Origin: Methanoregula sp.
GTDB lineage: Archaea > Halobacteriota > Methanomicrobia > Methanomicrobiales > Methanospirillaceae
DNA length: 32,000 nucleotides
Assembly: GCF_003170075.1 (NCBI RefSeq)
Contig: NZ_PMZU01000026.1
Location: forward strand, 42,004-74,003
Direction of reading: 5' to 3'
The notes below the pieces were generated by a model. The model saw nothing but the letters and a program-made list of their open reading frames with translations, was not told where the DNA came from and did no database searches. Of this stretch, positions 1,375-15,778 are shown piece after piece; position 1 is the first letter of the stretch, and each line of letters opens with the position of its first letter. Position numbers and translations under genes: made by a program.

Positions 1375-1511
1375 CTGCACTCTGTTGTACAAGATGCATC
1401 CTGCCTCTGCCACTATCCCTGTTTTTATTCTGGTGTGTCGTAAGATTCCAATAAAAATCCAACTTAGCAAATTTTATTTACTTTTGTAAAGTATACTTGA
1501 GGAGTGATGTA

Positions 1512-2228: not shown

Positions 2229-2230
2229 TT

Positions 2231-2539: not shown

Positions 2540-2545
2540 TAACTC

Positions 2546-3340: not shown

Positions 3341-4569
3341 AAATCATACTTGAAGCACGGGATGTCAGGTACCGGTACCCGGGAAGCCCGGATGCAATCA
3401 AAGGGATCAGTTTCCATATCCGCCCCGGAGAGAAAATTGCGCTTGTCGGTCCGAATGGAGCCGGCAAGTCCACGCTCCTGCAGATGTTCAACGGCATGAT
3501 CCGGCCGGACTCCGGGATCATGCTCATTGACAGCCAGCCGATCCGGTACGACAGATCATCACTACGCCAGCTCCGGAAACGTGTAGGGTACGTGCTACAG
3601 AATTCGGATCGCCAGATCATTGCCCCGACCGTATACCAGGATGTTGCGTTTGGCCCGGCAAACCTTGGGTATGATGACCAGGCCATCCGGAACGCGGTTG
3701 CGCTTGCACTCCGCCAGGTTGGCCTTGAGGGATTTGAACGGCGCCCGCCCCACCATCTCTCCGGTGGGGAGAAGAAACGGGTTGCAATCGCCGGCGTGCT
3801 GGCAATGGATCCGGATGTACTGGTATTCGACGAGCCGACCAGCGGTCTTGATCCTTCCGGTTCGGAAGATCTCATGGAACTGCTTGACGAACTGAACCAT
3901 GACGGTAAGACCATAATAATCTCCACCCATGATGTCGAACTTGCGTACCCGTGGGCTGAACGGGCAATCCTCCTCTTAAACGGGAGGATCCTTGAGGAGG
4001 ATGTGCCGGACGTGGCATTCGGGAATCTTGACCATGTCCGTATGGCGCACCTCTCTGTCCCTACTCTCCTCGAACTCTCGCAGGAACTCGGGCGGCGCGG
4101 GTTTGCGCAGCCGGAACGAAAACCACGCAGTGTCCTCGACATGATCAACATTATTGAGAGTCTGCTCCATCGTTCCGGCAATAACACCCGGATGGGCACC
4201 ATCTCGGTCTGCAATGTTGACGAGCAGGAGACGGCACCGCTCTCCGCATGGGTTAAAATCCGCCCGGGCCTCTCTGTCGGGGCGATGGGTACACGTGCGA
4301 AGCAGTGCGCCGCACGGGAACAGCTTGCCCTTGAGTTCACCTACGGTGTTATCGATAAGTGTATTCTGCGTGCACTGCGGGGGCAGGATTCCCTGATCCT
4401 GACCACCGGCAGCATGGTTAGCCGGGTCGCTGTCCGGGTGGAGGCGTACTGCCGGGAGAGCGGCAACACCATCAGCGTGATCTCTCTGAACACTACGAAC
4501 CACCCCTCAGTAAAGGGGCTTATAAACGAGGAAGTCCGACAGAATGATCCCTCCTGCCAAAAACCATGA
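3337..4569 (+). CDS. cbiO: ECF transporter ATPase CbiO with ~125-aa C-terminal extension of unknown function
   Basis: Walker A GPNGAGKST, Q-loop, signature LSGGEKKRVAIAG, Walker B VLVFDEPTSGLD and H-loop STHD. The canonical ECF-A part ends near aa 285; another ~125 aa follow (nt ~4189-4566). Confidence 0.9.
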   Translation: MKIILEARDVRYRYPGSPDAIKGISFHIRPGEKIALVGPNGAGKSTLLQMFNGMIRPDSGIMLIDSQPIRYDRSSLRQLRKRVGYVLQNSDRQIIAPTVYQDVAFGPANLGYDDQAIRNAVALALRQVGLEGFERRPPHHLSGGEKKRVAIAGVLAMDPDVLVFDEPTSGLDPSGSEDLMELLDELNHDGKTIIISTHDVELAYPWAERAILLLNGRILEEDVPDVAFGNLDHVRMAHLSVPTLLELSQELGRRGFAQPERKPRSVLDMINIIESLLHRSGNNTRMGTISVCNVDEQETAPLSAWVKIRPGLSVGAMGTRAKQCAAREQLALEFTYGVIDKCILRALRGQDSLILTTGSMVSRVAVRVEAYCRESGNTISVISLNTTNHPSVKGLINEEVRQNDPSCQKP

Positions 4570-4718
4570 ACGTCATGAAGATAACGACCATGATCATGGC
4601 CATTTCCATGAACGTGATCAGGGGAAGGCCATGATGACTATCGTGTTCCGGTTAACCTGAAATTTCATAGTACCTTCCTTTTAAAAATCCGGCCATAGCG
4701 GCCTTTTGACAGCCGGTC

Positions 4719-4801
4719 TTCCTGTTTTTGACCTGCAGGATGATGCCATTTTTGCCACTGCAAGAACACCGCTAAAGTGCAAAATTTTTCCTGTTTTGAC
4801 C
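4719..4801 (+). repeat. Direct repeats TTCCTGTTTT(T)GACC (4719-4733 and 4788-4801), with related TTTTGAC at 4704-4710 and TTTTTGCC near 4750, in the cbiO-cbiT spacer
   Basis: Read directly from the sequence. The two long copies differ only by one T in the T-run. Confidence 0.5.
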
Positions 4802-5000
4802 AAGAATTTTCCCAAAATACCTACGTCTAACCGGGTTATTTATCGCGGTGGACACCACTCCCCTCCCGGCATGTTCACCAGTCCGGGACTCTTGCAATCA
4901 GAGCCTGGATTACGCCCGGATTTGCAGGGATCTGCCGGTATCCTGTAACCTCCCCCACAAAACAAGCCTTAATACCTCAACACAACAAAATTTTCAGAAG

Positions 5001-5543
5001 ATGGTCAACACAATGCCTGCCGGCGGGCCGACACATGACGAAGTGATGGCGATCTCTCTGTTCAAGATGGAACTCAGGAACGGAGATACCATGCTCGATC
5101 TCGGGTGCGGGACCGGTAAGGTTTCGATCGCTGCTGCCAGGCTTGCGAAAAAAGTGTATGCAGTCGACCGGCGCCCGGAAGCGATCACCTATGCATCGGA
5201 TGCGGCAAAACATGCCGGCGTAACAAATATCGAATTTTATTCCGGGGAAGCTGCCGGTTTTCTTGCGACCGCCCCGGTCGTTGACTGTGCATTTGTGGGG
5301 GGATCGCAGCAGATCGAAACGATCCTGCCGGTACTTTCCCGCAAAGTCCGTCGGGTCATTGTCGTCAATGCCGTCCTTGTGAGCACCCTTGCGACCGTGA
5401 CTGCGACCATGCAGCGCCTCGGGATCTTCCGTGAGGCCGTGCACGTGCAGGTTTCCCGCTCGTACCCGCTCGGGCAGAGCATAATGTTCAAGCCGATCGA
5501 TCCGGTGTATATAATCGTGGGATCAGGTGCTGCATGCTCGTAG
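5001..5543 (+). CDS. cbiT: Cobalt-precorrin-6B C15-methyltransferase (decarboxylating) CbiT
   Basis: MVNTMPAGGPTHDEVMAISL..MLDLGCGTGKVSIAAA (SAM GxGxG motif), ~180 aa, the typical CbiT size. ATG at 5001 is preceded by a TTAATA TATA-like box at 4969-4974. The upstream part of ORF 4848.. does not look coding. Confidence 0.85.
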   Translation: MVNTMPAGGPTHDEVMAISLFKMELRNGDTMLDLGCGTGKVSIAAARLAKKVYAVDRRPEAITYASDAAKHAGVTNIEFYSGEAAGFLATAPVVDCAFVGGSQQIETILPVLSRKVRRVIVVNAVLVSTLATVTATMQRLGIFREAVHVQVSRSYPLGQSIMFKPIDPVYIIVGSGAACS

Positions 5544-6139
5544 GCCTTGGCCTCGGCCCGGGAAACCCGGAACTACTCACGCTCCGGGCAGTCCGGCTCT
5601 TAAAAGAGGCCGACACCATTTTTGTCCCGGGCCGGATCGCCGCGGATCTTGTCGCACCGTACGGCGATGCCGTGATGCTCGATTTTCCTATGACCGACAA
5701 CGAGGAAAAGATCCGGTCGTGTCTCGAAGCGAATGCAGAAAAGATCGCACCGGTCGCACAAAACGGCCTTGCGGTGTTCGGGATCCTCGGTGACCCAAAC
5801 TTTTTCTCCACGTTCTCGCGGCTCTGCGGGATCATCGCGGAGCGCTATCCGGGTATTGAATACCGGACCGAGCCCGGGATCAGTTCAATCACGGCGTTTG
5901 CATCTGCCGCACATGTCCCGCTCACCGGGGGTTTTGTCGTATCCGATGGCGCAGAACCTTCGGCCCTCATCCGGCTCAAGGCCCGGCACCCTCAGGAGAT
6001 CATCGCCGGTCTCAAGGCAGAAGGATACCGGGAGTTTGTCCTTGTCGAGCGGATGTTTTTCCCCGACATGAAAGTGTACCGCGATGATGAGATTCCAAAA
6101 AAGAGCGATTACATGAGCGTGCTGTACGCGAGGCGCTGA
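5534..6139 (+). CDS. cbiL: Cobalt-factor II / precorrin-2 C20-methyltransferase CbiL
   Basis: Tetrapyrrole methylase N-terminus MLVGLGLGPGNPELLTLRA, then ..FGILGDPNFFSTF..EPGISS.. 201 aa. Overlaps the cbiT end by 10 nt. Confidence 0.85.
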   Translation: MLVGLGLGPGNPELLTLRAVRLLKEADTIFVPGRIAADLVAPYGDAVMLDFPMTDNEEKIRSCLEANAEKIAPVAQNGLAVFGILGDPNFFSTFSRLCGIIAERYPGIEYRTEPGISSITAFASAAHVPLTGGFVVSDGAEPSALIRLKARHPQEIIAGLKAEGYREFVLVERMFFPDMKVYRDDEIPKKSDYMSVLYARR

Positions 6140-6140
6140 C

Positions 6141-6884
6141 ATGGTACAAAAACCTGCAAAGAGTACGAGCACAAAAGTCTGGTTCGTAGGCGCCGGCCCC
6201 GGAGACCCGGAGCTGATCACGGTCAAAGGGCACAACCTTGTCAAAAATGCCGATGTCCTGATCTATGCCGGATCGCTCGTCAACCCGGCACTGGTTGCGG
6301 GATCCGGCGCTGCGGTCAAACTTGACAGCTGGGGCATGCATCTCGATGACATAGTCGACACGATGGTGCAGCATGCGCAGGCCAGTAAAAACGTCGTACG
6401 GCTCCACTCGGGCGACCCGTCGCTCTACGGTGCGATTGTCGAACAGATCGAAAAACTTGAAGAGCGGGGCGTCGCGGTTGAAATCGTGCCCGGTGTCTCG
6501 TCCCTTTTTGCTGCGGCAGCAGCGCTCAGGACCCAACTCACGCTCCGGGGCGTATCCGAATCGGTTATCGTCACCAGGCCGGCAGGAAAGACACTCAAAG
6601 AAGATCAGATCGGGAAATTCTCGCGCCTCAATTCGACAATGGTCGTCTTCCTTGGCACGGAAAAACTCGGGGAGATAACAAAGAAACTTGCCTGCCCCAA
6701 GGACACGCCTGCCGCCGTCGTCTACCATGCCTCGTGGCCCGACCAGAAGATCGTCCGTGGCACCGTTGCCGATATCACAGCAAAGGCAAAGGATGCCGGG
6801 ATCGAACATACGGCGCTCCTTTTAATCGGCGGCGTTGTGGGACAAAAAAAGAAGGGCCACGTACCATCATACCTGTATTCATGA
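6141..6884 (+). CDS. cbiF: Cobalt-precorrin-4 C11-methyltransferase CbiF
   Basis: VWFVGAGPGDPELITVKG..VLIYAGSLV..VRLHSGDPSLYGAI..VPGVSS..VVYHASWPDQ, the characteristic CbiF/CobM pattern. Confidence 0.9.
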   Translation: MVQKPAKSTSTKVWFVGAGPGDPELITVKGHNLVKNADVLIYAGSLVNPALVAGSGAAVKLDSWGMHLDDIVDTMVQHAQASKNVVRLHSGDPSLYGAIVEQIEKLEERGVAVEIVPGVSSLFAAAAALRTQLTLRGVSESVIVTRPAGKTLKEDQIGKFSRLNSTMVVFLGTEKLGEITKKLACPKDTPAAVVYHASWPDQKIVRGTVADITAKAKDAGIEHTALLLIGGVVGQKKKGHVPSYLYS

Positions 6885-7753
6885 CCGACACCGTGGTGAT
6901 CGCACTGCCCCGGTTTCTCCGGGACGCCAGACGGATTGCAGAATTCCTGGATGCGGATGTGCTGGAATACCGGACCGGGATTTTTGCCGAGGTTTTTCCC
7001 AAGGCCCGCCGGATTGTTGCGCTGATGTCCATGGGGATCGTGGTACGCGGCATCGCCCCGCTCATCAGGGACAAGTGGACCGACCCTGCCGTCGTTGTCG
7101 TGACCCCGGATTTTTCGTATGCGGTCCCGCTGCTCGGAGGACACCATGGGGCAAACGAGCTCGCAAAGGAACTTGCGGGCCTCGGGCTTGTCCCGGTGAT
7201 CTCTACGGCAACAGAAGCCACCGGCCTCGATTCGGTGGAAGCAATTGCCGGCCGGGCTGGCTGCGATATTGTCAACCGCGACTCGACCCGTGCGGTCAAT
7301 GCCGGGATCCTGGACGGCACGACAAAACTCTATTCCGTGCCCGGCCCGGCGATCGTAATCGCCGGCTCGGATGTTTCTCTGCTGGTGCACAAAGGGGATT
7401 ATGTGGTCGGCATCGGCTGCCGCAAAGGAGTTACGGCAGGAGAAGTTACCGAAGCTGTCCGTGCAGCTCTCGCTGAAGCCGGCATTGCACAAAAAGACGT
7501 GCAGCTCTTTGCGACCACGGCAAAAAAATGCGGTGAGACCGGTCTCATTAAAGGGATTGCCTCAATCCCTGCCAACTTAATATTCCTTGATGATGACACT
7601 ATTAACGCACAGACCACTACCACACCCTCGAAGGCAAAAAAGATCGGCCTCGTCGGGGTCGCCGAACCGTGTGCGCTTGCGGTCGGGAAACACCGGGAAC
7701 TCGTCATGAAAAAGAAGGTTTTTGGGAAGGTGACCATTGCCATCGCCCGATGA
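6881..7753 (+). CDS. cbiG: Cobalt-precorrin-5A hydrolase CbiG
   Basis: ATG at 6881 overlaps the cbiF stop (ATGA). MTDTVVIAL..ALMSMGIVVRGIAPL..DPAVVVV..AVPLLGGHHGAN..IGCRKG, matching CbiG N-, mid- and C-terminal domains. The ORF-track extension from 6734 lies inside cbiF and is Arg-rich noise. Confidence 0.85.
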   Translation: MTDTVVIALPRFLRDARRIAEFLDADVLEYRTGIFAEVFPKARRIVALMSMGIVVRGIAPLIRDKWTDPAVVVVTPDFSYAVPLLGGHHGANELAKELAGLGLVPVISTATEATGLDSVEAIAGRAGCDIVNRDSTRAVNAGILDGTTKLYSVPGPAIVIAGSDVSLLVHKGDYVVGIGCRKGVTAGEVTEAVRAALAEAGIAQKDVQLFATTAKKCGETGLIKGIASIPANLIFLDDDTINAQTTTTPSKAKKIGLVGVAEPCALAVGKHRELVMKKKVFGKVTIAIAR

Positions 7754-8525
7754 GAGACAGACAAACGGTCTCTGGATCGTCGGGGTCGGGCCGGGACGGA
7801 TGGATTACATGACCGGCCGTGCAATTGACGCGATCTCCCGTGCCGACTACGTGATCGGAAACGACAGTTACCTTGAACCGCTCCGGCCGTTGCTTGCCGG
7901 GAAGCAGGTGATCCGGAGCTCGATGGGGAAAGAGGTCGAGCGGGCCAGAAAGGCGATCGAGCTTGCCCGGTCCCACGTGGTCGCGATCATCTCCGGCGGG
8001 GATGCAGGAGTCTACGGGATGGCCGGCATCGTCCTTGAGGTGCTCGAACATTCCGGTGCGACAATCCCGGTGGAGATTGTCCCGGGCGTTACTGCGGCAA
8101 ATGCCGGCGCATCGCTTGTCGGTTCGCCCCTCTCCGGGGATTTTGCCGTCATCAGCCTCTCGGACCTTCTCACGCCGCTTGAGGTGATCGAGAAACGCCT
8201 CGATGCTGTCTTCTCGGTCGGGATCCCGGTCGTGATCTACAATCCCCGGAGCCACGGCCGGCCGCACAATTTTGCGCTCGCGGTCGGGCACGCCCGGAAA
8301 TACTACCCGGCCACCGTTCCGGTTGCGGTGATAAAAAATGCCCTGCGCGAAGGACAGGCTGACCCGGTGATAACGACACTGGGGGAGATCGAGAGCGTCA
8401 TCGGAGAGATCGATATGCACACGACCGTTATTATCGGCGGGGACGAGAGCAGGATATGGAGGATGGGAAACGATGTCAAAGGAATCATCACGCCACGCGG
8501 ATACCACCACAAGTACGTATATTGA
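7737..8525 (+). CDS. cbiH: Cobalt-factor III / precorrin-3B C17-methyltransferase CbiH
   Basis: LWIVGVGPG..YVIG..VAIISGGDAGVYGMAG..VPGVTAA..FAVISLSD.. The only in-frame start upstream of the GVGPG motif is TTG at 7737, overlapping the cbiG end by 17 nt. Confidence 0.8.
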   Translation: MPSPDERQTNGLWIVGVGPGRMDYMTGRAIDAISRADYVIGNDSYLEPLRPLLAGKQVIRSSMGKEVERARKAIELARSHVVAIISGGDAGVYGMAGIVLEVLEHSGATIPVEIVPGVTAANAGASLVGSPLSGDFAVISLSDLLTPLEVIEKRLDAVFSVGIPVVIYNPRSHGRPHNFALAVGHARKYYPATVPVAVIKNALREGQADPVITTLGEIESVIGEIDMHTTVIIGGDESRIWRMGNDVKGIITPRGYHHKYVY

Positions 8526-9138
8526 CCCGGGCGCAACCACAGAGGAAGCCTACAAGATCTCAAAGACCTCGCGTACGCTCGCACGGAAGATTGTCGGGAA
8601 CGAGACCCCCGAGGACCGGGTGCGCCAGCGCTGCTCAGTCGCGGTCGGCGATTTTGCGATGGCGGACCTGTTGAGGTTCAATGCCGATCCCGTGCCTGCC
8701 ACAATAGCGGCGCTCAAAGCCGGCGCCCACATCATCACCGATATCCGGATGGTACAGGCAGGCATCCAGAAGAAAGGGCACGCGTCGAAAATTCTCTGTG
8801 CGCTTGACTTCGGCGGGGAGATCGCGCGGGAGAAGGGGATCACGAGGAGCTCAGCCGGGTTTATCGCGCTCCGCGACCGGCTGGCCGGCTCCATCATCGT
8901 CATCGGCAACGCTCCTTCTGCCCTGCTCACGGTCTGCGGGATAATCCACGAGGGGATCCGCCCGGCAGTCGTGATCGGCGCACCGGTGGGTTTTGTCAAC
9001 GCGGCTGAGTCAAAATCTGTCCTGCGTGCCCTTAATATCCCCTCGATCTCGACCGAAGGGACACGGGGCGGGACGCCGGTCGCTGTCGCTGCGATAAATG
9101 AGTGCATCACGATTCTTATCGAGGAATCCACGTCATGA
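8473..9138 (+). CDS. cbiC: Cobalt-precorrin-8 methylmutase CbiC
   Basis: ..IITDIRMVQAGI..IVIGNAPSAL..PAVVIGAPVGFVNAAESK..RGGTPVAVAAINE.., the CbiC/CobH pattern. ATG at 8473 overlaps cbiH by 53 nt, so the exact start is uncertain. Confidence 0.8.
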   Translation: MSKESSRHADTTTSTYIDPGATTEEAYKISKTSRTLARKIVGNETPEDRVRQRCSVAVGDFAMADLLRFNADPVPATIAALKAGAHIITDIRMVQAGIQKKGHASKILCALDFGGEIAREKGITRSSAGFIALRDRLAGSIIVIGNAPSALLTVCGIIHEGIRPAVVIGAPVGFVNAAESKSVLRALNIPSISTEGTRGGTPVAVAAINECITILIEESTS

Positions 9139-10139
9139 GGGACCCGGTCACCGGTTTTCTGTACCCGGAGAACTGGCAGGAGAAGGTTTTCGATCCGGCC
9201 GGACTTGACCTTGTCGTGCAGGGTTTTGCCGTCCTGACCGCATCGGGAACCATCCTCCGGCGCGGGTACACGACCGGGACCACAGCCGCTGCCGCATGCA
9301 AGGCAGCGATCCTTTCGCTGGAACAGGACGTGTCGCAGGTTACGGTCCGCCTCCCCTGCGGCCTTGTTGCCGATGTCCCGGCCGAGGCTCATGCCGGGCA
9401 CGCGTCGTGCAGGAAATATGCCGGTGATTACCCCTCTGATGTGACGGCGGGTATCGAGTTTGTCGCTGAGGCTGTTGCCGCACCAGACGGGCTTTCACTT
9501 ATACCAGGGCCAGGTATCGGGCGGTTCGCCCGGGACACGCCCCGGTACAAAAAAGGAGCGCCGGCGATCAGCGACGCCCCGCTTGCCTGCATTCTTGCAT
9601 CCATGCAGGAGGCCATAGATGACACCGGCATTTCCGGCGCTACGGTCACGCTCTCTATCCCCGAAGGTGCACGCATTGCAAATAAGACACTCAACCCCCG
9701 GGTCGGCATTGAGGGGGGATTATCCGTGCTAGGGTCGACCGGGCTTGTCGAGCCCTGGGATGATCACCTTGAGGAGTCAGTCCAGGCCCGGGTAAAAGAT
9801 GCAAAGAATGTCGTCCTCACGACCGGCCGGGTCGGGCTCCGGTATTCCCGCCTGCTCTTTCCCGATCACGAGGTCGTGCTTGCCGGGGGCCGGCTCGGGG
9901 AAGCACTGTCTGCTACGAATGGCGACGTGATCCTCTGCGGCCTTCCAGCGCTGATCCTAAAATATATCGAACCGCATATCCTTGATGGTACAGGATACGC
10001 GACCGTGGAAGAACTGTCCGCATCACCGGCATTTTTGCCAATCGCGGCGCCGATCTTAACGGCGTACAAAAAAGAACATCCTTCGGTAAAGGTGATCCTC
10101 GTGAACCGGGAAGGTACAATAATCGGAGAGAGCCCATGA
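9135..10139 (+). CDS. cbiD: Cobalt-precorrin-5B C1-methyltransferase CbiD
   Basis: ATG at 9135 overlaps the cbiC stop (ATGA). LRRGYTTGTTAAAACKAA..LNPRVGIEGGLSVLGSTGLVEPW.., the hallmark CbiD motifs. Confidence 0.9.
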   Translation: MRDPVTGFLYPENWQEKVFDPAGLDLVVQGFAVLTASGTILRRGYTTGTTAAAACKAAILSLEQDVSQVTVRLPCGLVADVPAEAHAGHASCRKYAGDYPSDVTAGIEFVAEAVAAPDGLSLIPGPGIGRFARDTPRYKKGAPAISDAPLACILASMQEAIDDTGISGATVTLSIPEGARIANKTLNPRVGIEGGLSVLGSTGLVEPWDDHLEESVQARVKDAKNVVLTTGRVGLRYSRLLFPDHEVVLAGGRLGEALSATNGDVILCGLPALILKYIEPHILDGTGYATVEELSASPAFLPIAAPILTAYKKEHPSVKVILVNREGTIIGESP

Positions 10140-10345
10140 AGATTGTCGGTGCCGGGTGCGGGACCGGCACGATCGATTTTACCGCACTCCTCCCGCTCCT
10201 GCCGGCATCCGCGTCCCGGATCATTGAGTGCTCGGACCCTGTGGCATACGAGAAGAGCGTGGCTTTCCTGTCATCGGTTGAAGAACGGGCGTGCCAGACG
10301 AAGGTGCCCGTGCGTAGGCAGACGCACGACAAATTATACCCATAA
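10136..10345 (+). CDS. Hypothetical 69-aa protein translationally coupled to cbiD; N-terminus resembles the start of a tetrapyrrole-methylase (CbiE-like) or CbiJ-like protein
   Basis: ATG at 10136 overlaps the cbiD stop (ATGA). MKIVGAGCGTGTIDFTALLPLLPASASRII.. resembles the M.I.VG.GPG..LT..A start of TP-methylases but is truncated. Ends 13 nt before cbiA. Coding status unproven. Confidence 0.3.
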   Translation: MKIVGAGCGTGTIDFTALLPLLPASASRIIECSDPVAYEKSVAFLSSVEERACQTKVPVRRQTHDKLYP

Positions 10346-10358
10346 AGAGGTAAACGAG

Positions 10359-11705
10359 ATGATCATGCAGGCAGAGATCCCCCGGGTCGTGATCGCCGGT
10401 ACGCACAGCGGCTGCGGCAAGACGACGATCGCAAGCGGCCTGATGGCGGCACTGGTCACCCGTGGCTGCACGGTCCAGCCGTTCAAGACCGGCCCGGACT
10501 TTATCGATCCCTCACACCACACGCTCATCTGCGGCCGGCCGTCACGGAACCTTGATTTCTGCATGATGGGGGAGACCGGGATACGCCGGACGTTTGCCGC
10601 TGCTTCGGCAGGCGCTGAAATCGCGGTCATCGAAGGGGCGATGGGCCTCTTTGACGGAAGGGAAGGGTCTGATACCGCGAGTGCCGCACACGTGGCGAGG
10701 ATCCTCAAGGCGCCGGTCATCCTTGTCGTAGATGTGCACGCGGTCTCGCGCAGCGTCCACGCGGTGGTGAAGGGATTCCGGGACTTCGATCCCCGGGTGA
10801 AGATCGCCGGCATTATCTACAATAAAATCGGGAGCGATCGGCACCGGCAGATGATCGCACAGGAGGAGTTTGTCCCGGCGCTCGGCTGGGTGCCAAAGCA
10901 GCTGGAGAGCGAGGTAAAAAGCCGGCACCTCGGCCTCGTAATGGCGCACGAGTCGCCGGCGATGAAGACTTACGGCCGGGTGATTGCCGAATCGTGCGAC
11001 CTTGACCGGATCCTCGACATCGCCCGGGCTGCCCCGCCGCTCAATATTCCGGTGCCTGTCGCACAAAAAACTCCTGCGGCCCGGCACCGACCGGTCATCG
11101 GGGTCGCACGCGATGATGCGTTCTGCTTTTACTACCAGGACAACCTTGACCGGCTCGCCCGGGCCGGCGCGGAACTCCGCCCCTTTTCACCGATTGCAGA
11201 CACGGAGCCGGATGTGGATGCGATCTATATCGGGGGTGGGTATCCCGAACTTCATGCTGAAGCACTCGAACGCTCGCGGTGCCGGCAGTTCATCCGTGAC
11301 CGGGCAGCAGCGGGCATCCCTATCTACGGTGAATGCGGGGGGCTCATGTACCTCTGCGGCTCGCTCGAAGCGGACCGCGAATATGAGATGGCAGGCGTGC
11401 TCCCGGCCCGGGCCGTCATGACGAAAAAACTCCAGGCGCTGGGATATGTGCACGGTGCATTCGGGAGCCGACCCGACCTCTGGACGGGAACAGTGGCATT
11501 CAGGGGGCACGAGTTCCATTACTCCCGGGTCGAGTGCGGCCCGGACGCACGCTTTGCAATCCGGCTCGGGCAGGGAGCAGGCATCAGGAGCGGCAATGAC
11601 GGGCTTACGGAATACAACACCATCGGGACATACACCCACGCGTATTTCACCGACGCGTTCTGCCGGAAATTTGTAGCGGCCGCTGCGGCATTTAAGAAAC
11701 GGTAG
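10359..11705 (+). CDS. cbiA: Cobyrinate a,c-diamide synthase CbiA (CobB)
   Basis: ATG at 10359 follows a GAGGT RBS. VVIAGTHSGCGKTTIASGLMAAL..FKTGPDFIDPSHH.. (ATP-binding domain) and a C-terminal glutamine amidotransferase domain (..IYGECGGLMYL..RGHEFHYS..). The 72-aa Arg-rich upstream extension in the ORF track is rejected. Confidence 0.9.
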   Translation: MIMQAEIPRVVIAGTHSGCGKTTIASGLMAALVTRGCTVQPFKTGPDFIDPSHHTLICGRPSRNLDFCMMGETGIRRTFAAASAGAEIAVIEGAMGLFDGREGSDTASAAHVARILKAPVILVVDVHAVSRSVHAVVKGFRDFDPRVKIAGIIYNKIGSDRHRQMIAQEEFVPALGWVPKQLESEVKSRHLGLVMAHESPAMKTYGRVIAESCDLDRILDIARAAPPLNIPVPVAQKTPAARHRPVIGVARDDAFCFYYQDNLDRLARAGAELRPFSPIADTEPDVDAIYIGGGYPELHAEALERSRCRQFIRDRAAAGIPIYGECGGLMYLCGSLEADREYEMAGVLPARAVMTKKLQALGYVHGAFGSRPDLWTGTVAFRGHEFHYSRVECGPDARFAIRLGQGAGIRSGNDGLTEYNTIGTYTHAYFTDAFCRKFVAAAAAFKKR

Positions 11706-11994
11706 CCAAAAAAGGTGCACACTGGGACAAAACCACGCTCTCACCCTGTGCGGCCGATGCACTCTCCTGGACCCGTCAGCTCACGGTCGCGGGAAAAACA
11801 GTTGGGCCCCCACCGGTTTTGACAAGGCCGTTGCAGCCATCGAGGCCCGGGAGCTCATCTCCGATTTAGAGATAGCAGCAGAATTCATGCGCCGGATACA
11901 GCAGGATAATTACATCCCACCGGCCTTAGCAAATGAGTATGCTGTTGCCGTGCTCGCTGAATACCACCGGGCCATGGCAAAAAAAAGCAACTGA
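11677..11994 (+). pseudogene. Start-less open frame with protein-like C-terminal ~60 aa: orphan gene fragment or non-canonical start
   Basis: The frame is open from 11677 to TGA at 11992-11994 and reads ..CTLGQNHALTLCGRCTLLDPSAHGRGKNSWAPTGFDKAVAAIEARELISDLEIAAEFMRRIQQDNYIPPALANEYAVAVLAEYHRAMAKKSN. There is no in-frame ATG/GTG/TTG before 11887, so it is absent from the ORF track. Confidence 0.3.
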
Positions 11995-12074
11995 TACCGG
12001 GATTGTCAGACCCCCGGATCAAAAGGGGAGTATAGCCCCAAGTCTTTTTCCCTCCACCCGAAATTACATTATTC

Positions 12075-13364
12075 ATGGATCCCCTCCTCGCGTTTGTGAT
12101 CACACTCGCCCTCATCACTATCGTCAGCCTCCGGTACAGGATCTCCCCGTTCTTCACCCTGATCGGCGGGGCGGTCCTGTTCGGGTTTCTGGCGGGCATG
12201 ACATTCGATGCGACCATGCTTGGGATCATCGCAGGTGTCGGCAAGGTATTTTCTGCATTCGGCATCATCATTCTCTGCGGGGCAGTCATTGCAAAGCTCC
12301 TGCAAGAGCAGCACCAGATCGAAGAGATCGTGGCCGATATCCGTAGGTACGTGAAAAACCCGCCGGTGATCGCCGGGGTATCCGGCTATCTTTTATCCGT
12401 ACCTATTACCTGCTGCATCACAGCCTATATCATGCTGAACCCGATCCTCGATAGCCTTGAGAAAGACAAAACGAAGCGCAACGTGCTTCTGTACCTTGCT
12501 GCGGTCGGTGGAATCATTTCGTATGCGCTCATATTCCCGACACCGGTTGTCATCCCGCTCTACGAAGCGTTCTCCAGGGGAATGAGCCCGGTTCTGTTTG
12601 ATGCCATATCTATCCCGCTCTCACTTCTGGTACTGGGTGGAATCCTCCTTTATTTCCGGTTCGTCCATCCAGATGTGGTCACCCCAAAAAGAACTGAATC
12701 ACCAGCAACGCCCCATCAAATCCCCGGGACCGAGACTCCGGTCATGCGTCAGGGAATCCACTGGCGGGCATGGGCTCCCTTTATCGCGATCCTGATCGCC
12801 ATTCCGGTCGCTCTTCTGCTCCTGCACCTGTCGCAGATGAGTATGATTAACGTAATCATGCTGGTCGGTGCAGTCACGGCCATCGCCCTTGCGTCTCCGT
12901 CAATGCGAACTCAGGGATTGTCACAGGGCGCAAAACACGCAGGCATAATTATCTTTGACATCTGCGGGGCGGGAGCGCTTGGTTATGTGATCGTCAGCAG
13001 CGGGTTTGCGCAGGATGCCATGGGCCGGATGACCCTGCTCATCCCCATCATCCTCGTGCCGTTCATCCTTGCCGCCTTGATCGAGACTGCGCAGGGCTCA
13101 CGGGTGGTGACGGCGGTGATTACGGCCGAAGTCCTCGCAGGATCGACCGTGGCCGGTGCAATCCACCCGATCCCCCTCATCCTCCTTATCAGTGCCGGGT
13201 CGTGTATCGTGTCCTACGTGACCGATCCCTTCTTCTGGCTTGTCCAGCGGACAACCGGGGACGATATTAAAACCGTGGTGAAGAATTACACGCTGCCCAT
13301 CGCACTCGCGGGTATCGGGATCTTTATTGTTGCCCTGGCCCTGGAGTACCTGGTCTTCCGGTAA
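12075..13364 (+). CDS. GntP-family (gluconate:H+ symporter-like) permease, substrate unknown
   Basis: 429-aa polytopic membrane protein. The N-terminal pattern ..ISPFFTLIGGAVLFGFLAGM..IIAGVGKVFSAFGIIILCGAVIAKLLQE..I..IVADI.. matches the GntP/DsdX family architecture. Confidence 0.6.
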   Translation: MDPLLAFVITLALITIVSLRYRISPFFTLIGGAVLFGFLAGMTFDATMLGIIAGVGKVFSAFGIIILCGAVIAKLLQEQHQIEEIVADIRRYVKNPPVIAGVSGYLLSVPITCCITAYIMLNPILDSLEKDKTKRNVLLYLAAVGGIISYALIFPTPVVIPLYEAFSRGMSPVLFDAISIPLSLLVLGGILLYFRFVHPDVVTPKRTESPATPHQIPGTETPVMRQGIHWRAWAPFIAILIAIPVALLLLHLSQMSMINVIMLVGAVTAIALASPSMRTQGLSQGAKHAGIIIFDICGAGALGYVIVSSGFAQDAMGRMTLLIPIILVPFILAALIETAQGSRVVTAVITAEVLAGSTVAGAIHPIPLILLISAGSCIVSYVTDPFFWLVQRTTGDDIKTVVKNYTLPIALAGIGIFIVALALEYLVFR

Positions 13365-13390
13365 ATGATATAAAAGGTTGATCTCTCGGA

Positions 13391-13777
13391 TTATTCTACA
13401 AATAATCTGCCCTGTTCGGTCAGCGAGTAGATGATCCAGTTGCCGTGATACTCGCCTTCAATCAGGCCGCTCTCTTTCAAAATATTCAGGTGATAGGAAA
13501 GTTTTGAGCCGGCAAGGTGCATGAACCGGTTAATAACGCAGACACAGAGCGGCTGGTCGCGGAGCAGAGAGAGGATAGTGAGCCGCAGCGGGTCGGAGAG
13601 TGCATGGTATCTCCTGCTCTGCTCAATGAGATCCTTTTCTTCCGGAATATGCCGGGAGAGAAATTCAACTCCTCCCAGATGTTCAATGGCCTCAAGGCCC
13701 ACATCGGGATTCATGGCCGCTCTCTTTTTGGGTCTGGGTTTTCGCGGGCCGCAACAGGAACTTTTTGATAATTTCAT
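13391..13777 (-). CDS. arsR: ArsR/SmtB-family metalloregulator (hgcAB/ars-associated)
   Basis: ATG at 13777 gives MKLSKSSCCGP... Winged-HTH core YHALSDPLRLTILSLLRDQPLCVCVINRF..LSYHLNILKESGLI with the CVC metal(loid)-sensing motif. Divergent from hgcA. The track start at 13837 would run through the shared promoter. Confidence 0.85.
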   Translation of the reverse strand: MKLSKSSCCGPRKPRPKKRAAMNPDVGLEAIEHLGGVEFLSRHIPEEKDLIEQSRRYHALSDPLRLTILSLLRDQPLCVCVINRFMHLAGSKLSYHLNILKESGLIEGEYHGNWIIYSLTEQGRLFVE

Positions 13778-13847
13778 TTCAAAATAATATGAAATGCCAA
13801 CGTATATACGCTTCACTTGCAGACAATATTTCAACAAAATTTGAAAT
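13775..13847. promoter_or_regulatory. Divergent arsR/hgcA control region: palindromic TATA flanked by two inverted repeats (candidate ArsR operators)
   Basis: CATTTCA-N8-TGAAATG at 13775-13796, overlapping the arsR ATG. Perfect palindrome CGTATATACG at 13801-13810, which contains the TATA element. ATTTCAA-N6-TTGAAAT at 13828-13847, between the TATA and the hgcA ATG at 13861. TGAAATGCC also occurs as a direct repeat at 13790-13798 and 13842-13850. Confidence 0.5.
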
Positions 13848-13860
13848 GCCGTGAAGTACT

Positions 13861-14985
13861 ATGACGAACATACCATCCGGCCCTAATCACAAAGGAACTC
13901 CGTTGAGGAGTGAACCATCCATAGAAAACACCATGCAATCCTGCTGCGGGAGTGTTCAAAAAGAGCCCGCATCCGCATGTTTCTGCACCGGAAAAACCGG
14001 CCCGGCACCGGGAATCCGTACCACCACATCCATAATCACATCTGCCGACAGGCGGGATCATTTCCTTGCCCGGTGGGGCGTCAACCGGATGGGCCGTATC
14101 GTTACGCCGGGTCTGTACCGGCTCGGCAGCCCAACCACAGATTCACCCGTCTTTGCGTCCGCTAACTACACACTCAGCTTTGACGCACTCCGTTCAGCGC
14201 TTGCCGGCACTGATGCATGGATCCTGGTGCTGGATACCAAGGGGATCAATGTCTGGTGCGCTGCCGGGAAAGGGACGTTTGGCACCGGTGAACTGATCCG
14301 GCGTATTGCGGTGACCGGGCTTTCCGAAATTGTCTCGCACCGCAGGATCATCCTCCCCCAGCTTTCGGCATCCGGGGTTTCGGCACATGACGTCGCCCAT
14401 TGGTCCGGTTTCTCGGTCGAGTACGGCCCGGTCCGGGCCCGGGATCTCCCGGCATACCTTCCCACCCGCACGGCAACGCAGGAGATGCGGACCGTCCGGT
14501 TCCCGCTTGCTGACCGGCTCCTCCTCTGCCCCATGGAACTTGTGCACGCACTCCTGCCCATGATTGCAGTAGCAGTCGTGTTGTACTTCCTTGCCGGCCC
14601 GGTTGCGGGGCTCGCAGCAATTGCCGCCGTGCTCGCAGGGACCGTGCTCTTCCCGGCGCTGCTCCCGTATCTCCCGACGCATGATTTCTCCATGAAGGGC
14701 TTCATCCTCGGGGCCATTGTCACGATCCCGTTTGCAGCAGCGTTTGCCCGGGCACCCGGCCTCTCCGGCATCGCACAGGTCATCGCGGTGCTCGTCCCGT
14801 TCCTCATCATCCCGGCCGTTGTCGCATACCTCGCCCTCAACTTCACCGGCTCGACCACGTTCACCTCCCGGACGGGCGTGAAAAAAGAGATCTTCCGGTA
14901 CGTGCCGACAATGGTGCTCATGGCAGGCGCCGGGACAATCCTCGGGATCGCGCTTGGCGTCCTCCGGCTCATGGGGGTGACCTGA
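13861..14985 (+). CDS. hgcA: Mercury methylation corrinoid protein HgcA
   Basis: Hallmark cap-helix motif NVWCAAGK at aa 130-137 (nt 14248-14271, Cys codon 14257-14259). N-terminal CFeSP-like corrinoid-binding domain followed by a C-terminal domain with about 5 TM helices. Directly followed by hgcB. An alternative start at Met25 (13933) is possible. Confidence 0.9.
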   Translation: MTNIPSGPNHKGTPLRSEPSIENTMQSCCGSVQKEPASACFCTGKTGPAPGIRTTTSIITSADRRDHFLARWGVNRMGRIVTPGLYRLGSPTTDSPVFASANYTLSFDALRSALAGTDAWILVLDTKGINVWCAAGKGTFGTGELIRRIAVTGLSEIVSHRRIILPQLSASGVSAHDVAHWSGFSVEYGPVRARDLPAYLPTRTATQEMRTVRFPLADRLLLCPMELVHALLPMIAVAVVLYFLAGPVAGLAAIAAVLAGTVLFPALLPYLPTHDFSMKGFILGAIVTIPFAAAFARAPGLSGIAQVIAVLVPFLIIPAVVAYLALNFTGSTTFTSRTGVKKEIFRYVPTMVLMAGAGTILGIALGVLRLMGVT

Positions 14986-15323
14986 TGTTTAACGCTTACG
15001 CAGAAAACACGCTCAAGTATTTCCCGGAGAAATGCATCAACTGCCGGCGCTGCACGCAGGTCTGCCCTCACGGAGTTTTTACTGAAGGGAAAAACCGGGC
15101 AGCACTCGTTAATCCCCGGGCCTGCATGGAGTGCGGGGCCTGTGCGAAAAACTGCCCGGTGCAGGCAATTGAGGTACAGAGCGGCGTCGGATGCGCATGG
15201 GCCATGATCAGCGCGGCACTCAGGGGAAAGGACATGGACAGTGGCGAATGCAGCTGCGGGGGGCCGGAGAGTTCCTGTTGCGGCCAGACAAAAGAAGACC
15301 CATGTTCTTACGGGGCAGAATAG
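14985..15323 (+). CDS. hgcB: Mercury methylation 2[4Fe-4S] ferredoxin HgcB
   Basis: Two CX2CX2CX3C motifs (CINCRRCTQVC, CMECGACAKNC) that include the HgcB-diagnostic CMECGA. Cys-rich tail with vicinal CC (aa 98-99, nt 15276-15281). The start overlaps the hgcA stop (TGATG). Confidence 0.9.
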   Translation: MFNAYAENTLKYFPEKCINCRRCTQVCPHGVFTEGKNRAALVNPRACMECGACAKNCPVQAIEVQSGVGCAWAMISAALRGKDMDSGECSCGGPESSCCGQTKEDPCSYGAE

Positions 15324-15334
15324 AGGAATCAGCA

Positions 15335-15778
15335 ATGAAGGCAACCACAAAATCTGATGATGCAGTGGCAAGTTACATGAGCAGGTTCACCTGCTCTGCA
15401 GCAGTGTTTTCTGCCTTTTCCGAAGATCTTGGCCTAAATCCCGATACGGCAAAAAAGATCGCATGCGGATTCGGTGCAGGGATATCGAAGACCGGCAATA
15501 TGTGCGGTGCGGTGTCCGGGGCAATCATGGTTATCGGGTTGAAATACGGAAAGACCGAAGCGGATGACGAAGCCGCAACCGAGAAGACACGGGCCCTCGT
15601 CCGGCAGTTCATTCACGAGTTTATAGCAAAGAACGGCTCGGTCAACTGTACGGATCTGCTCGGACTTAACATTAGCAACCCCGAAGAATTTGCACAGGCA
15701 CGCGATAATAAACTGTTTGTCACGAAATGCCCGGAACTTGTGCGGGACGCCACGGAAATCCTTGAAAAAATCCTTTGA
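15335..15778 (+). CDS. C_GCAxxG_C_C family putative redox-active protein
   Basis: ATG at 15335 follows a GAGGA RBS, 11 nt after hgcB. FTCSAAVFSAF..ACGFGAGISKTGNMCGAVSGA..NCTDL..KCPELV reproduces the C / GCAxxG / C / C signature of the family. Confidence 0.8.
   Translation: MKATTKSDDAVASYMSRFTCSAAVFSAFSEDLGLNPDTAKKIACGFGAGISKTGNMCGAVSGAIMVIGLKYGKTEADDEAATEKTRALVRQFIHEFIAKNGSVNCTDLLGLNISNPEEFAQARDNKLFVTKCPELVRDATEILEKIL

What the first reader, a model, noticed from the sequence alone, without database searches (positions are those of the whole stretch)
13745..15285. Shared S-C-C-G vicinal-cysteine tail in ArsR, HgcA and HgcB, with a 16-nt identical (inverted) DNA string between arsR and hgcB
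The ArsR N-terminus reads MKLSKSSCCGP, with Cys codons at 13751-13756 on the minus strand. The HgcA N-terminal region reads MQSCCGS (nt 13942-13947). The HgcB C-terminal tail reads PESSCCGQ (nt 15276-15281).

The arsR and hgcB copies are encoded by the same 16 nt, AGTTCCTGTTGCGGCC. This lies at 15270-15285 on the + strand and at 13747-13762 on the - strand, so codon choice for SSCCG is identical. My rough estimate is that a chance 16-mer match somewhere in 32 kb is not very rare (expected count below one). A match that falls in frame on the same peptide motif in functionally linked genes is still notable.

Vicinal cysteines are strong Hg(II) ligands, and the C-terminal CC of HgcB is known to matter for methylation. 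The same tail on the regulator and on HgcA suggests a common Hg(II)-binding or hand-off module, possibly spread by local duplication.
Basis: seen in the sequence. Interest (0 to 1): 0.6.

Follow-up and report, generated by a model that had tools for sequence, protein, structure and literature searches.

The report
Cysteine-pair arms on ArsR, HgcA, HgcB
Three neighbouring proteins in a methanogen (an arsenic-type repressor and the two mercury-methylation proteins) each carry a conserved, flexible Ser-Cys-Cys-Gly arm that probably binds a soft metal or metalloid, but each arm is an old trait of its own protein family and the 16-base DNA identity between two of them is a coincidence, not a duplication.

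Summary
ArsR (13391-13777, minus strand) begins MKLSKSSCCGP. HgcA (13861-14985) has MQSCCGS at residues 25-31. HgcB (14985-15323) has ESSCCGQ at residues 95-101. The 16-mer lies at 15270-15285 (+) and 13747-13762 (-).

All three motifs are conserved in relatives, with an S-CC-G consensus in each family.
- ArsR has four Cys, all invariant: Cys8/9 on a disordered N-terminal arm and Cys78/80, which align with CadC Cys58/60. This suggests a CadC- or CgArsR-like thiolate sensor site.
- HgcA residues 1-47 form a disordered, Cys-rich arm. It occurs in most methanogen HgcAs, whether or not arsR is nearby.
- The Cys pair in the HgcB tail is already known.

The duplication idea fails.
- ArsR keeps SCCG in loci that lack hgcAB.
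- The 16-nt identity is unique to this haplotype and is absent from the closest relative.
- It sits one synonymous C-to-T change away from the hgcB ortholog consensus.
- Random 32-kb sequences give 0.53 such 16-mers on average.

The genomic context points to arsenic. ArsR sits on a bidirectional promoter with two operator-like sites (ATTTCA-N8-TGAAAT) flanking a TATA box, conserved in 71 loci. That promoter faces hgcA-hgcB-C_GCAxxG-acr3-arsC.

Verdict: the motifs are real and the mechanism is plausible, but the shared-origin claim is rejected. Interest is moderate.

The parts
13391..13777 (-). arsR: ArsR/SmtB-family repressor of 128 aa. It has only four Cys (8, 9, 78, 80).
   Evidence: NCBIfam NF033788 scores 70.9 bits against a cutoff of 55. 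Pfam HTH_5 matches. The AF2 model has pLDDT 81, with Foldseek hits to SmtB, CzrA and CadC. All four Cys are invariant in the 71-sequence alignment A2.
13748..13759 (-). Codons for Ser7-Cys8-Cys9-Gly10 of ArsR, on the N-terminal arm.
   Evidence: Read directly from the sequence. Across homologs, S at -1 is 85% and G at +1 is 85%. Residues 1-22 are predicted disordered.
13538..13546 (-). Codons for Cys78-Val79-Cys80 of ArsR, at the start of helix alpha3 of the HTH.
   Evidence: These residues align exactly with Cys58-Val-Cys60 of S. aureus CadC (1u2w) and with the CVC of Lmo1102. They are conserved in 98-100% of homologs.
13747..13762 (-). The arsR copy of the 16-mer AGTTCCTGTTGCGGCC.
   Evidence: The same arsR codons (AGT TCC TGT TGC) occur in orthologs L081 and L084.
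15270..15285 (+). The hgcB copy of the 16-mer AGTTCCTGTTGCGGCC.
   Evidence: Orthologs L004, L082, L091, L096 and L163 read AGTTCC TGC TGC GG. The window differs from them by one synonymous C-to-T change in the first Cys codon.
13776..13798 (.). Operator-like site O1: inverted repeat ATTTCA-N8-TGAAAT(GCC). It overlaps the arsR start codon and lies between the TATA box and that start.
   Evidence: Repeats D1 and I3. Conserved in 71 non-redundant arsR-family loci. The pattern occurs 134 times in 1.12 Mb of fetched loci, about two per arsR-family locus; about 0.3 is my own estimate of the number expected by chance.
13803..13808 (.). Palindromic TATA-box candidate (TATATA) shared by the two divergent promoters. 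It is centred about 28 nt from the arsR ATG, which implies a leaderless arsR mRNA. This reading is an inference.
   Evidence: The consensus gtTATATAtcTT sits at a fixed position in 71 loci. No transcription start sites are available.
13828..13850 (.). Operator-like site O2: ATTTCA-N8-TGAAAT(GCC). It lies 52 bp from O1 and ends 11-14 nt upstream of the hgcA start codon, over the expected hgcA transcription start.
13861..14985 (+). hgcA: corrinoid protein with a transmembrane domain, 374 aa.
   Evidence: NCBIfam HgcA equivalog NF040863 scores 434.8 bits against a cutoff of 275. The cap-helix motif NVWCAAGK is invariant. AF2 predicts five long C-terminal helices.
13861..14001 (+). N-terminal arm of HgcA (residues 1-47). 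It carries two Cys clusters, Cys28-Cys29 (13942-13947) and Cys40/Cys42 (13978-13986).
   Evidence: pLDDT is below 50 for residues 1-47. All 99 full-length homologs have at least 2 Cys here; 74 have CC and 25 have CxC. The arm is present in most methanogen HgcAs and few bacterial ones.
14985..15323 (+). hgcB: 2x[4Fe-4S] ferredoxin of 112 aa. It has Cys70 (the ND132 Cys73 equivalent) and a Cys-rich tail with C89, C91, C98, C99 and C107.
   Evidence: NCBIfam HgcB equivalog NF040864 scores 118.6 bits against a cutoff of 99. In tails, S-CC-G is seen at 70% and 72%. The role of the tail Cys pair is described in PMC7305189.
15335..15778 (+). C_GCAxxG_C_C family protein, third gene of the operon.
   Evidence: TIGR01909 scores 103.9 bits against a cutoff of 47.4.
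15801..16874 (+). acr3: arsenite efflux transporter.
   Evidence: TIGR00832 scores 432.8 bits against a cutoff of 282.8.
16871..17299 (+). arsC-like arsenate reductase of the LMW-PTP / thioredoxin type. Its start overlaps the acr3 stop.
   Evidence: The best NCBIfam hit is TIGR02691 at 112.7 bits, which is below its equivalog cutoff of 174.3. The assignment is therefore at family level only.

Best explanation
The three S-C-C-G motifs are three independent, family-specific, flexible Cys-rich terminal arms. They have converged on the same small-residue-flanked vicinal dithiol. This is probably because that arrangement chelates thiophilic metal(loid)s such as As(III), MAs(III) and Hg(II).

1. ArsR.
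   - Shown: Cys8/Cys9 sit on a disordered N-terminal arm, and Cys78/Cys80 sit at the start of the HTH helix at the CadC Cys58/Cys60 positions. These are the protein's only four Cys, and all are invariant.
   - Shown at sequence level only: there are two ATTTCA-N8-TGAAAT sites, 52 bp apart, flanking a shared TATA box.
   - Inferred: the arm of one subunit closes onto the CVC of the other to form an S3/S4 inducer site, as in CadC and CgArsR. The apo-dimer binds the two sites and represses both arsR (probably leaderless) and the divergent hgcA-hgcB-C_GCAxxG-acr3-arsC operon. Inducer binding releases it. Given the regulon, the inducer is most likely As(III).

2. HgcB. Its tail Cys pair is the known substrate-handling pair.

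3. HgcA.
   - Shown: residues 1-47 form a methanogen-lineage Cys-rich arm (CC ... CxC) that is predicted disordered.
   - Inferred: it acts as a second capture or hand-off arm on the cytoplasmic side, near the corrinoid.

The 16-nt DNA identity has no function of its own. Both sites happen to encode Ser-Ser-Cys-Cys-Gly with the same codons. The hgcB copy is one synonymous transition away from its ortholog consensus, and the identity is not shared by any relative.
For: - Motif conservation: ArsR Cys8/9/78/80 are invariant in A2. SCCG is seen in about 100 of 120 hits, and most exceptions are truncated gene calls. S-CC-G flank statistics hold in all three families.
- ArsR architecture: the CVC aligns to CadC Cys58/60; the N-arm is disordered; the fold is ArsR/SmtB. 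CadC and CgArsR precedents are in PMC4287715 and PMC11868830.
- Operators: two inverted repeats plus a TATA box are conserved in 71 loci whatever the divergent gene, and the pattern is specific to arsR-family loci.
- Regulon: acr3, arsC and C_GCAxxG are in the window. DGC, ArsP, Trx, cupin and acr3 appear in other loci. hgcA is the first gene in 18 of 43 informative loci, lies deeper in the operon in 7, and is absent in 12 that still carry ars genes.
- HgcA arm: pLDDT is below 50 for residues 1-47. It is present in methanogen HgcAs with and without arsR.
- The 16-mer as coincidence. The window and L081 are 97-100% identical up to about 14353 and 83-91% identical beyond, so hgcB has a different ancestry in the nearest relative, which lacks the match.
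Against: - No experiment supports any binding claim. The inducer (As, Hg, Cd, or a persulfide) is inferred from gene context only.
- The monomer model cannot show whether the N-arm reaches the CVC.
- The arm-to-CVC distance is about 70 residues here, against about 50 in CadC, and the arm Cys are vicinal rather than CxxxC.
- Conditional on both sites encoding the motif, a 16-nt identity is rare (0.06% of cross-locus pairs). A tiny gene-conversion patch therefore cannot be strictly excluded.
- One clade (L082/83/91) lost both the ArsR pair and the HgcA arm. This could hint at a functional coupling that the small sample cannot test.
- The promoter and transcription-start assignments have no transcript data behind them.
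Confidence: 0.7

Rival explanations
1. One reading: the SCCG tail is one module that was copied between hgcB, arsR and hgcA by local duplication or gene conversion. On this view the 16-nt identity is the trace of that event.
For: The 16-nt in-frame identity on the same pentapeptide is rare for independent sequences: 0.06% of cross-locus pairs, and P = 0.0045 for identical codons. The genes lie within 1.5 kb of each other.
Against: - The identity is confined to 16 nt, with unrelated flanks.
- The ArsR arm is universal in a subfamily that often has no hgcAB nearby.
- The HgcB pair is found in bacteria and archaea alike.
- Each copy matches its own orthologs; hgcB differs from five orthologs by a single wobble base.
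- The nearest relative has a 6-nt run.
- The hgcA copy uses different codons (TCC TGC TGC GGG).
- 16 nt is too short for usual homologous exchange. This last point rests on general knowledge.
Confidence: 0.04
2. The ArsR is a Hg(II) sensor, an archaeal functional analogue of MerR. On this view the three arms form a dedicated Hg(II) relay (sensor, HgcB, HgcA), so hgcAB would be induced by its own substrate.
For: Hg(II) has very high affinity for dithiols. 25 of 43 informative loci of this ArsR subfamily have hgcA in the divergent operon. All three proteins carry the same motif.
Against: - The operon and the subfamily's other operons are built of arsenic genes: acr3, arsC, ArsP, DGC and Trx.
- No mer genes were seen.
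- ArsR keeps the arm where hgcAB is absent.
- Arm losses in ArsR and HgcA are not coupled.
- The one experimentally studied hgcAB regulator responds to arsenic and SAH (10.1101/2022.10.17.512643).
Confidence: 0.12
3. The ArsR Cys residues sense redox state or persulfide, as in the ArsR-family members BigR, SqrR and HlyU. They would do this by forming di- or polysulfide bridges rather than by binding a metalloid. This would suit a sulfidic methanogen habitat.
For: There are weak NCBIfam hits to BigR. Foldseek hits include HlyU, SqrR and BigR. Vicinal and paired Cys can form such bridges.
Against: - Those hits reflect the common fold.
- The Cys positions match CadC and EcArsR (CVC at alpha3), not the BigR/SqrR pair.
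- The regulon is arsenic efflux and reduction, not sulfide oxidation.
Confidence: 0.07
4. The HgcA N-terminal Cys clusters are structural or cofactor ligands (for example a Zn or Fe-S site, or an aid to corrinoid loading) rather than a substrate arm. On this view their resemblance to the HgcB tail is incidental.
For: Four to five Cys are arranged as CC...CxC with a roughly constant spacing of 8-12 residues. That arrangement is compatible with a tetrathiolate site.
Against: - The segment varies in length and sequence and is predicted disordered.
- Several lineages lost it entirely while keeping an otherwise intact hgcAB (L082, L086, L161).
- Most bacterial HgcAs, including proven methylators, lack it.
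Confidence: 0.12

Closest known systems
S. aureus pI258 CadC (alpha3N site: Cys7, Cys11, Cys58, Cys60)
   Same: Same ArsR/SmtB fold. A flexible N-terminal arm carries two Cys, and a Cys-Val-Cys sits at the start of the HTH helix. Cys78/80 align exactly with CadC Cys58/60. CadC gives the longest Foldseek alignment, at 101 columns.
   Different: - The arm Cys are vicinal (CC) rather than CxxxC, and lie about 70 residues from the CVC rather than about 50.
- There are two extra helices (24-41).
- There is no alpha5 His/Asp/Glu site: residues 118-128 contain no His.
- The regulon is arsenic genes plus hgcAB, not cadA.
- The host is archaeal, with a TATA-type promoter.
Corynebacterium glutamicum CgArsR (type 3 As(III) site: Cys15-Cys16 of one subunit plus Cys55 of the other)
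   Same: A vicinal Cys pair on the N-terminal arm is combined with Cys near the DNA-binding helix. It controls an acr3/arsC-type operon (PMC4287715, PMC11868830).
   Different: Here two Cys (CVC) are retained at alpha3 instead of one. Sequence similarity is weak (6j0e, E = 0.0033 with the family profile). I did not inspect the residue-level alignment to Cys55.
ArsR2 of Pseudodesulfovibrio mercurii ND132 (the experimentally shown hgcAB regulator)
   Same: An ArsR-family gene next to hgcAB. Arsenic-linked regulation of hgcAB has been proposed or shown (10.1101/2022.10.17.512643).
   Different: - ND132 ArsR2 is co-transcribed upstream of hgcA and has Cys26 plus a 4-Cys site (47, 49, 86, 88).
- The window's ArsR is divergently transcribed. 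It has Cys 8, 9, 78 and 80 only, and hgcAB is fused into an acr3-arsC operon.
- PMC10349881 reported arsR upstream of hgcA in only one cultured archaeal methylator.
HgcB C-terminal Cys pair (ND132 Cys94/Cys95) and the C-terminal Cys pair of MerA
   Same: A vicinal Cys pair on a disordered tail, proposed to acquire Hg(II) and deliver it to the active site (PMC7305189). The window's HgcB has it (Cys98/99).
   Different: In methanogen HgcBs the pair is internal to a longer tail with extra CxC clusters (ECSCGG...SCCG...C). The analogous arm on the HgcA N-terminus was not mentioned in the papers I could search.

Membership tests
ArsR/SmtB metalloregulators | Winged helix-turn-helix domain matching the family models | tested here: met
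   NF033788 scores 70.9 bits against a cutoff of 55. Pfam PF01022 and PF12840 match. Foldseek finds SmtB, CzrA and CadC with TM-scores of 0.66-0.79 relative to the target.
ArsR/SmtB metalloregulators | Binds an inverted-repeat operator at its own promoter as a homodimer | tested here: inconclusive
   Two ATTTCA-N8-TGAAAT inverted repeats flank the TATA box and are conserved in 71 loci. Binding and dimerisation cannot be tested with these tools.
CadC-type alpha3N thiolate site | Cys-X-Cys at the start of the first HTH helix (CadC Cys58/Cys60) | tested here: met
   Cys78-Val-Cys80 align column for column with CadC Cys58-Val-Cys60.
CadC-type alpha3N thiolate site | Two Cys on the N-terminal arm (CadC Cys7, Cys11) | tested here: inconclusive
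   Two invariant arm Cys are present (Cys8, Cys9), on a disordered arm. However, they are vicinal rather than CxxxC, and lie farther from the CVC.
CadC-type alpha3N thiolate site | Second (alpha5) Zn site made of Asp/His/His/Glu in the C-terminal helix | tested here: not met
   The C-terminal helix spans only residues 121-127. The sequence LTEQGRLFVE has no His.
E. coli R773 ArsR type 1 As(III) site | Cys32, Cys34 and Cys37 (CVCDLC) | tested here: not met
   The window reads LCVCVINRF. The first two Cys are present and the third is absent.
CgArsR type 3 As(III) site | Vicinal Cys pair on the N-terminal arm plus one Cys near alpha3 of the partner subunit | tested here: inconclusive
   The vicinal arm pair and the alpha3 Cys are both present. 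6j0e is only a weak profile hit (E = 0.0033), and I did not inspect its alignment. Inter-subunit geometry is not testable with a monomer model.
ND132 ArsR2-type hgcAB regulator | Four-Cys site (Cys47, 49, 86, 88) on a loop and a beta strand | tested here: not met
   The window's ArsR has no Cys outside positions 8, 9, 78 and 80. The ND132 site is described in 10.1101/2022.10.17.512643.
HgcA | Corrinoid-binding domain with the cap-helix motif N(V/I)WCA(A/G)GK, plus a five-helix transmembrane domain | tested here: met
   NF040863 scores 434.8 bits against a cutoff of 275. N130-V-W-C133-A-A is invariant. Five long helices span residues 216-370.
HgcB | Two CxxCxxCxxxCP motifs, a conserved Cys after the second motif, and Cys at the C-terminal tail | tested here: met
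   NF040864 scores 118.6 bits against a cutoff of 99. The motifs CINCRRCTQVCP and CMECGACAKNCP, the GVGC Cys70, and the tail Cys98/99 are all read directly from the sequence.

The most novel reading that the evidence does not exclude
In Methanoregula-type methanogens, hgcAB is a genuine member of an As(III)-inducible ars operon. That operon is controlled by an undescribed ArsR sensor type that combines an N-arm vicinal Cys pair with an alpha3 CVC. The enzyme there carries two Cys-rich capture arms, one on the HgcA N-terminus and one on the HgcB C-terminus. On this reading, the native substrate of methanogen HgcAB is a thiophilic metalloid such as arsenic, handled by corrinoid-dependent methylation or detoxification, and Hg methylation is a side reaction.
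Probability: 0.15. Interest if true: 0.85.

Novelty: new variant of a known kind. Interest (0 to 1): 0.4.

Why it matters
The native role and regulation of HgcAB remain open questions. One recent paper argued that archaeal hgcAB is regulated by a toxin-antitoxin-like gene rather than by arsR (PMC10349881).

This locus type bears on both questions. It shows many Methanoregula lineages in which hgcAB is the lead cargo of an ArsR-controlled acr3-arsC operon. It also provides a sharply defined operator pair and a four-Cys candidate sensor. Together these make the question of which inducer acts (As(III), MAs(III) or Hg(II)) directly testable by EMSA, reporter assays and Cys-to-Ser variants.

It also flags a methanogen-specific Cys-rich arm on HgcA that could affect Hg(II) capture and methylation efficiency.

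The 16-nt DNA identity itself does not matter.

Tried and rejected
- Local duplication or gene conversion. Rejected on ortholog comparison and on the nearest relative.
- Translation starting downstream of the motifs. Rejected on three grounds. The arsR ATG/GTG is fixed at the end of O1 in 71 loci. The hgcA start sits at a constant 83-84 nt from the arsR start in relatives. The alternative hgcA start (M25) still precedes the Cys pair.
- Apparent ArsR homologs lacking the arm (118-120 aa gene calls). These proved to be truncated start calls (L163) or a long-read homopolymer frameshift (L162 against L161).
- Trans-regulation of arsR-less hgcAB loci by the same operator. No operator-like site lies upstream of hgcA in loci without the adjacent arsR.
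- Correlated loss of the ArsR and HgcA arms. Both single losses and a double loss occur, and there are too few independent events for a test.
- Rfam scan of the window: no hit.
- Literature searches for a described HgcA N-terminal Cys-rich region: nothing relevant found in the searchable library.
- The 29-nt direct repeat at 1079/1280 is an internal duplication of a two-domain DUF333 protein and is unrelated to the finding.
Full report
**1. Observation**

The region holds arsR on the minus strand (13391-13777). On the plus strand it holds hgcA (13861-14985), hgcB (14985-15323), a C_GCAxxG_C_C gene (15335-15778), acr3 (15801-16874) and an arsC-like gene (16871-17299). The plus-strand genes are tightly packed, with overlapping or 12-22 nt junctions.

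- ArsR Cys8/Cys9 are encoded at 13751-13756.
- HgcA Cys28/Cys29 are encoded at 13942-13947.
- HgcB Cys98/Cys99 are encoded at 15276-15281.
- The 16-mer AGTTCCTGTTGCGGCC lies at 15270-15285 (+) and 13747-13762 (-). It does not extend further on either side.

The best protein hits are Methanoregula MAGs.

**2. Is the 16-mer more than chance?**

As a bare repeat it is not. Random sequences with the window's dinucleotide transitions give 0.53 exact repeats of 16 nt or more per 32 kb. The window itself has another, unrelated 16-mer pair.

Conditional on both sites encoding SSCCG, identical codons have P = 0.0045 from the window's codon usage. In 5064 cross-locus arsR x hgcB comparisons, an in-frame run of 16 nt or more through the Cys codons occurs in 0.06%. 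So it is a rare coincidence at the pair level.

Three results show it is a coincidence all the same.
- Of 18 same-locus pairs, only the window has it. The next longest runs are 12 and 11 nt.
- L081 is the closest relative: arsR 99% and hgcA 93% identical, with identical arsR DNA at the site. Its hgcB tail is different and the run is only 6 nt. The two sequences are 97-100% identical from 11954 to about 14353 and only 83-91% identical from there through hgcB. This indicates a recombination breakpoint inside hgcA.
- Each copy is orthologous to its own family. arsR of L081 and L084 reads AGT TCC TGT TGC. hgcB of L004, L082, L091, L096 and L163 reads AGT TCC TGC TGC GG. The window's hgcB therefore differs from five orthologs by one synonymous C-to-T change.

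Both mRNAs carry the string in the sense orientation, so no antisense pairing follows from it.

**3. Are the peptide motifs conserved?**

ArsR. In the top 120 homologs, SCCG(T/P) at residues 7-11 is nearly universal. In a 71-sequence alignment, Cys8, Cys9, Cys78 and Cys80 are invariant, and they are the only Cys in the protein. Apparent exceptions of 118-120 aa are artefacts. L163 is a truncated start call whose real N-terminus is MLSSKRSCCN. L162 has a homopolymer frameshift that the short-read copy L161 lacks.

HgcA. All 99 full-length homologs have at least 2 Cys before the conserved core. 74 have CC and 25 have CxC, usually followed 8-12 residues later by a CxC or CCC cluster. Among 80 species-representative genomes, the arm is present in most methanogen HgcAs irrespective of arsR. 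It is present in only a few bacterial ones.

HgcB. 92 of 99 tails have CC. This is the known functional pair (PMC7305189).

The residues flanking the pair converge across the three families:

| Family | S at -1 | Residue at +1 |
|---|---|---|
| ArsR | 85% | G 85% |
| HgcB | 70% | G 72% |
| HgcA | 62% | S 43%, G 30% |

**4. What the ArsR is**

It meets the ArsR/SmtB model cutoffs. The AF2 model (pLDDT 81) has the following layout:
- a disordered arm at residues 1-22;
- two extra helices at 24-41;
- a canonical winged HTH from residue 47, with Cys78/Cys80 at the start of the first HTH helix.

Foldseek returns SmtB, CzrA, HlyU and CadC, and CadC gives the longest alignment. The family profile aligns Cys78-Val-Cys80 exactly on CadC Cys58-Val-Cys60.

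Compared with the known sensor sites:
- It lacks the third Cys of the R773 type 1 site.
- It lacks the alpha5 site.
- It lacks the Cys pattern of ND132 ArsR2.
- The combination of an N-arm vicinal pair with an alpha3 CVC sits between CadC's alpha3N site and CgArsR's type 3 site (PMC4287715, PMC11868830).
- I found no description of this archaeal subfamily.

**5. Promoter and regulon**

The 84-bp arsR-hgcA spacer contains two 23-nt sites, ATTTCA-N8-TGAAAT-GCC, at 13776-13798 and 13828-13850. They are 52 bp apart and flank TATATA at 13803-13808.

The same module (O2, about 22 nt, TTATATA, about 8 nt, O1 ending in the arsR start codon) is conserved in 71 non-redundant loci of this ArsR subfamily, whatever the divergent gene is. 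The operator pattern occurs 134 times in 1.12 Mb of fetched loci, about two per arsR-family locus, against about 0.3 that I estimate by chance. It is absent upstream of hgcA where arsR is absent.

Among 43 informative metagenome loci:
- hgcA is the first divergent gene in 18;
- hgcA lies deeper in the divergent operon in 7;
- hgcA is absent in 12 that carry acr3, arsC or C_GCAxxG.

Other cargo includes DGC-domain proteins, ArsP permeases, a small thioredoxin, cupins and an MtrA-like protein.

From the TATA spacing I infer that arsR is leaderless and that O1 and O2 cover the two transcription starts. No transcript data are available to test this.

**6. Co-occurrence**

Among arsR-hgcA adjacent lineages, most have all three arms. 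Losses are not coupled.
- L096 and L097 lost the ArsR pair but keep the HgcA arm.
- L086 and L161/L162 keep the ArsR pair but lost the HgcA arm.
- The L082/83/91 clade lost both.
- HgcB always keeps its pair.

The sample has too few independent events for a formal test.

**7. Interpretation**

The motifs are real, conserved and most likely functional thiolate arms. They are convergent family traits, not a shared mobile module.

The best-supported mechanism is as follows.
- ArsR is a thiolate-sensing repressor of a bidirectional promoter. That promoter places hgcAB under the same control as acr3 and arsC. Context favours As(III) as the inducer, with Hg(II) or persulfide as less likely alternatives.
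- The HgcB tail acts as already proposed in the literature.
- The HgcA arm (disordered, residues 1-47) is a candidate second capture arm.

What is shown is the sequence, the conservation, the fold and the synteny. What is inferred is ligand identity, operator binding, inter-subunit site geometry and the role of the HgcA arm.

**8. Comparison with what is known, and novelty**

The arsR-hgcAB-ars gene association is already published for bacteria. The HgcB Cys pair is known. N-arm Cys in ArsR-family sensors is known from CadC and CgArsR.

The following appear new, at least in the searchable literature:
- this archaeal ArsR subfamily, with its four-Cys layout and its highly conserved double operator;
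- the frequency with which it controls hgcAB in Methanoregula, which contrasts with PMC10349881;
- the methanogen HgcA N-terminal Cys-rich arm.

I rate this a new variant of a known kind, of moderate interest.

Noticed in passing
window 13776-13850; also L081-L160: Two operator-like inverted repeats (ATTTCA-N8-TGAAAT-GCC), 52 bp apart, flank a palindromic TATA box. The architecture is conserved in 71 non-redundant arsR-family loci, and O1 ends in the arsR start codon. This suggests a leaderless arsR mRNA and a shared bidirectional promoter.
   Followed up: yes
window ~14350 (inside hgcA), compared with L081: Nucleotide identity to the closest relative drops from 97-100% (11954-14353) to 83-91% from about 14354 through hgcB. 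This points to a recombination breakpoint near the boundary between the corrinoid-binding and transmembrane domains of hgcA. HgcB is only 75% identical at the protein level, while ArsR is 99% identical.
   Followed up: partly
window 1497-11705: A cobalt-uptake cluster (CbiM, CbiQ, an ABC ATPase) and a cobalamin-biosynthesis cluster lie directly upstream of the arsR-hgcAB locus. The biosynthesis genes include several tetrapyrrole methylases plus CbiG, CbiC, CbiD and CbiA/CobB. HgcA, encoded next door, is a corrinoid protein.
   Followed up: partly
window 12075-13364 (+); L102 5412-6761, L121 5396-6682: A GntP-family permease lies convergent with arsR, 27 nt from its stop, and has a weak hit to the arsinothricin exporter ArsQ. 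Similar N-termini (MD(L/P)L(L/V)AF(V/I)ITL...) appear in the same position next to arsR in other loci. It may belong to the same arsenic island.
   Followed up: partly
L012, L021, L038, L102, L110, L111, L115, L144, L159: A second ArsR subfamily carries an N-terminal (R/Y)CCP(A/K/T)D vicinal Cys pair and a CVCE motif. It often sits near the SCCG-type arsR or near ars genes. It is another methanogen regulator with an arm pair plus a CVC.
   Followed up: no
L121 637-1335 (-); L022 2887-3567 (+): An MtrA-like protein (Pfam PF04208, the corrinoid-binding subunit family of methyltransferase Mtr) is encoded inside ars clusters, next to arsC or just upstream of hgcA. It is a second corrinoid-type protein in the ArsR-controlled neighbourhood.
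   Followed up: no
L162 2860-2900 vs L161; L163 1596-1983: Public gene calls for this ArsR subfamily are often truncated to 118-120 aa. The causes are internal TTG/ATG starts or a long-read homopolymer error (T8 against T9). Either way, the SCCG arm is hidden from protein databases.
   Followed up: yes
L163 3291-4724: The gene called downstream of hgcA is a 477-aa product with both ferredoxin (Fer4) and SBF/Acr3 Pfam hits. It is either an HgcB-Acr3 fusion or an assembly or calling artefact.
   Followed up: no
window 971-1334: Two pairs of 81-nt direct repeats, including a 29-nt exact match at 1079/1280, are an internal duplication within a two-domain DUF333 protein (806-1351). This looks ordinary.
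   Followed up: yes
window 9952-9967 and 28577-28592: Another exact 16-mer direct repeat (TGATCCTAAAATATAT) has no obvious meaning. It illustrates that 16-nt matches occur by chance in this window.
   Followed up: no
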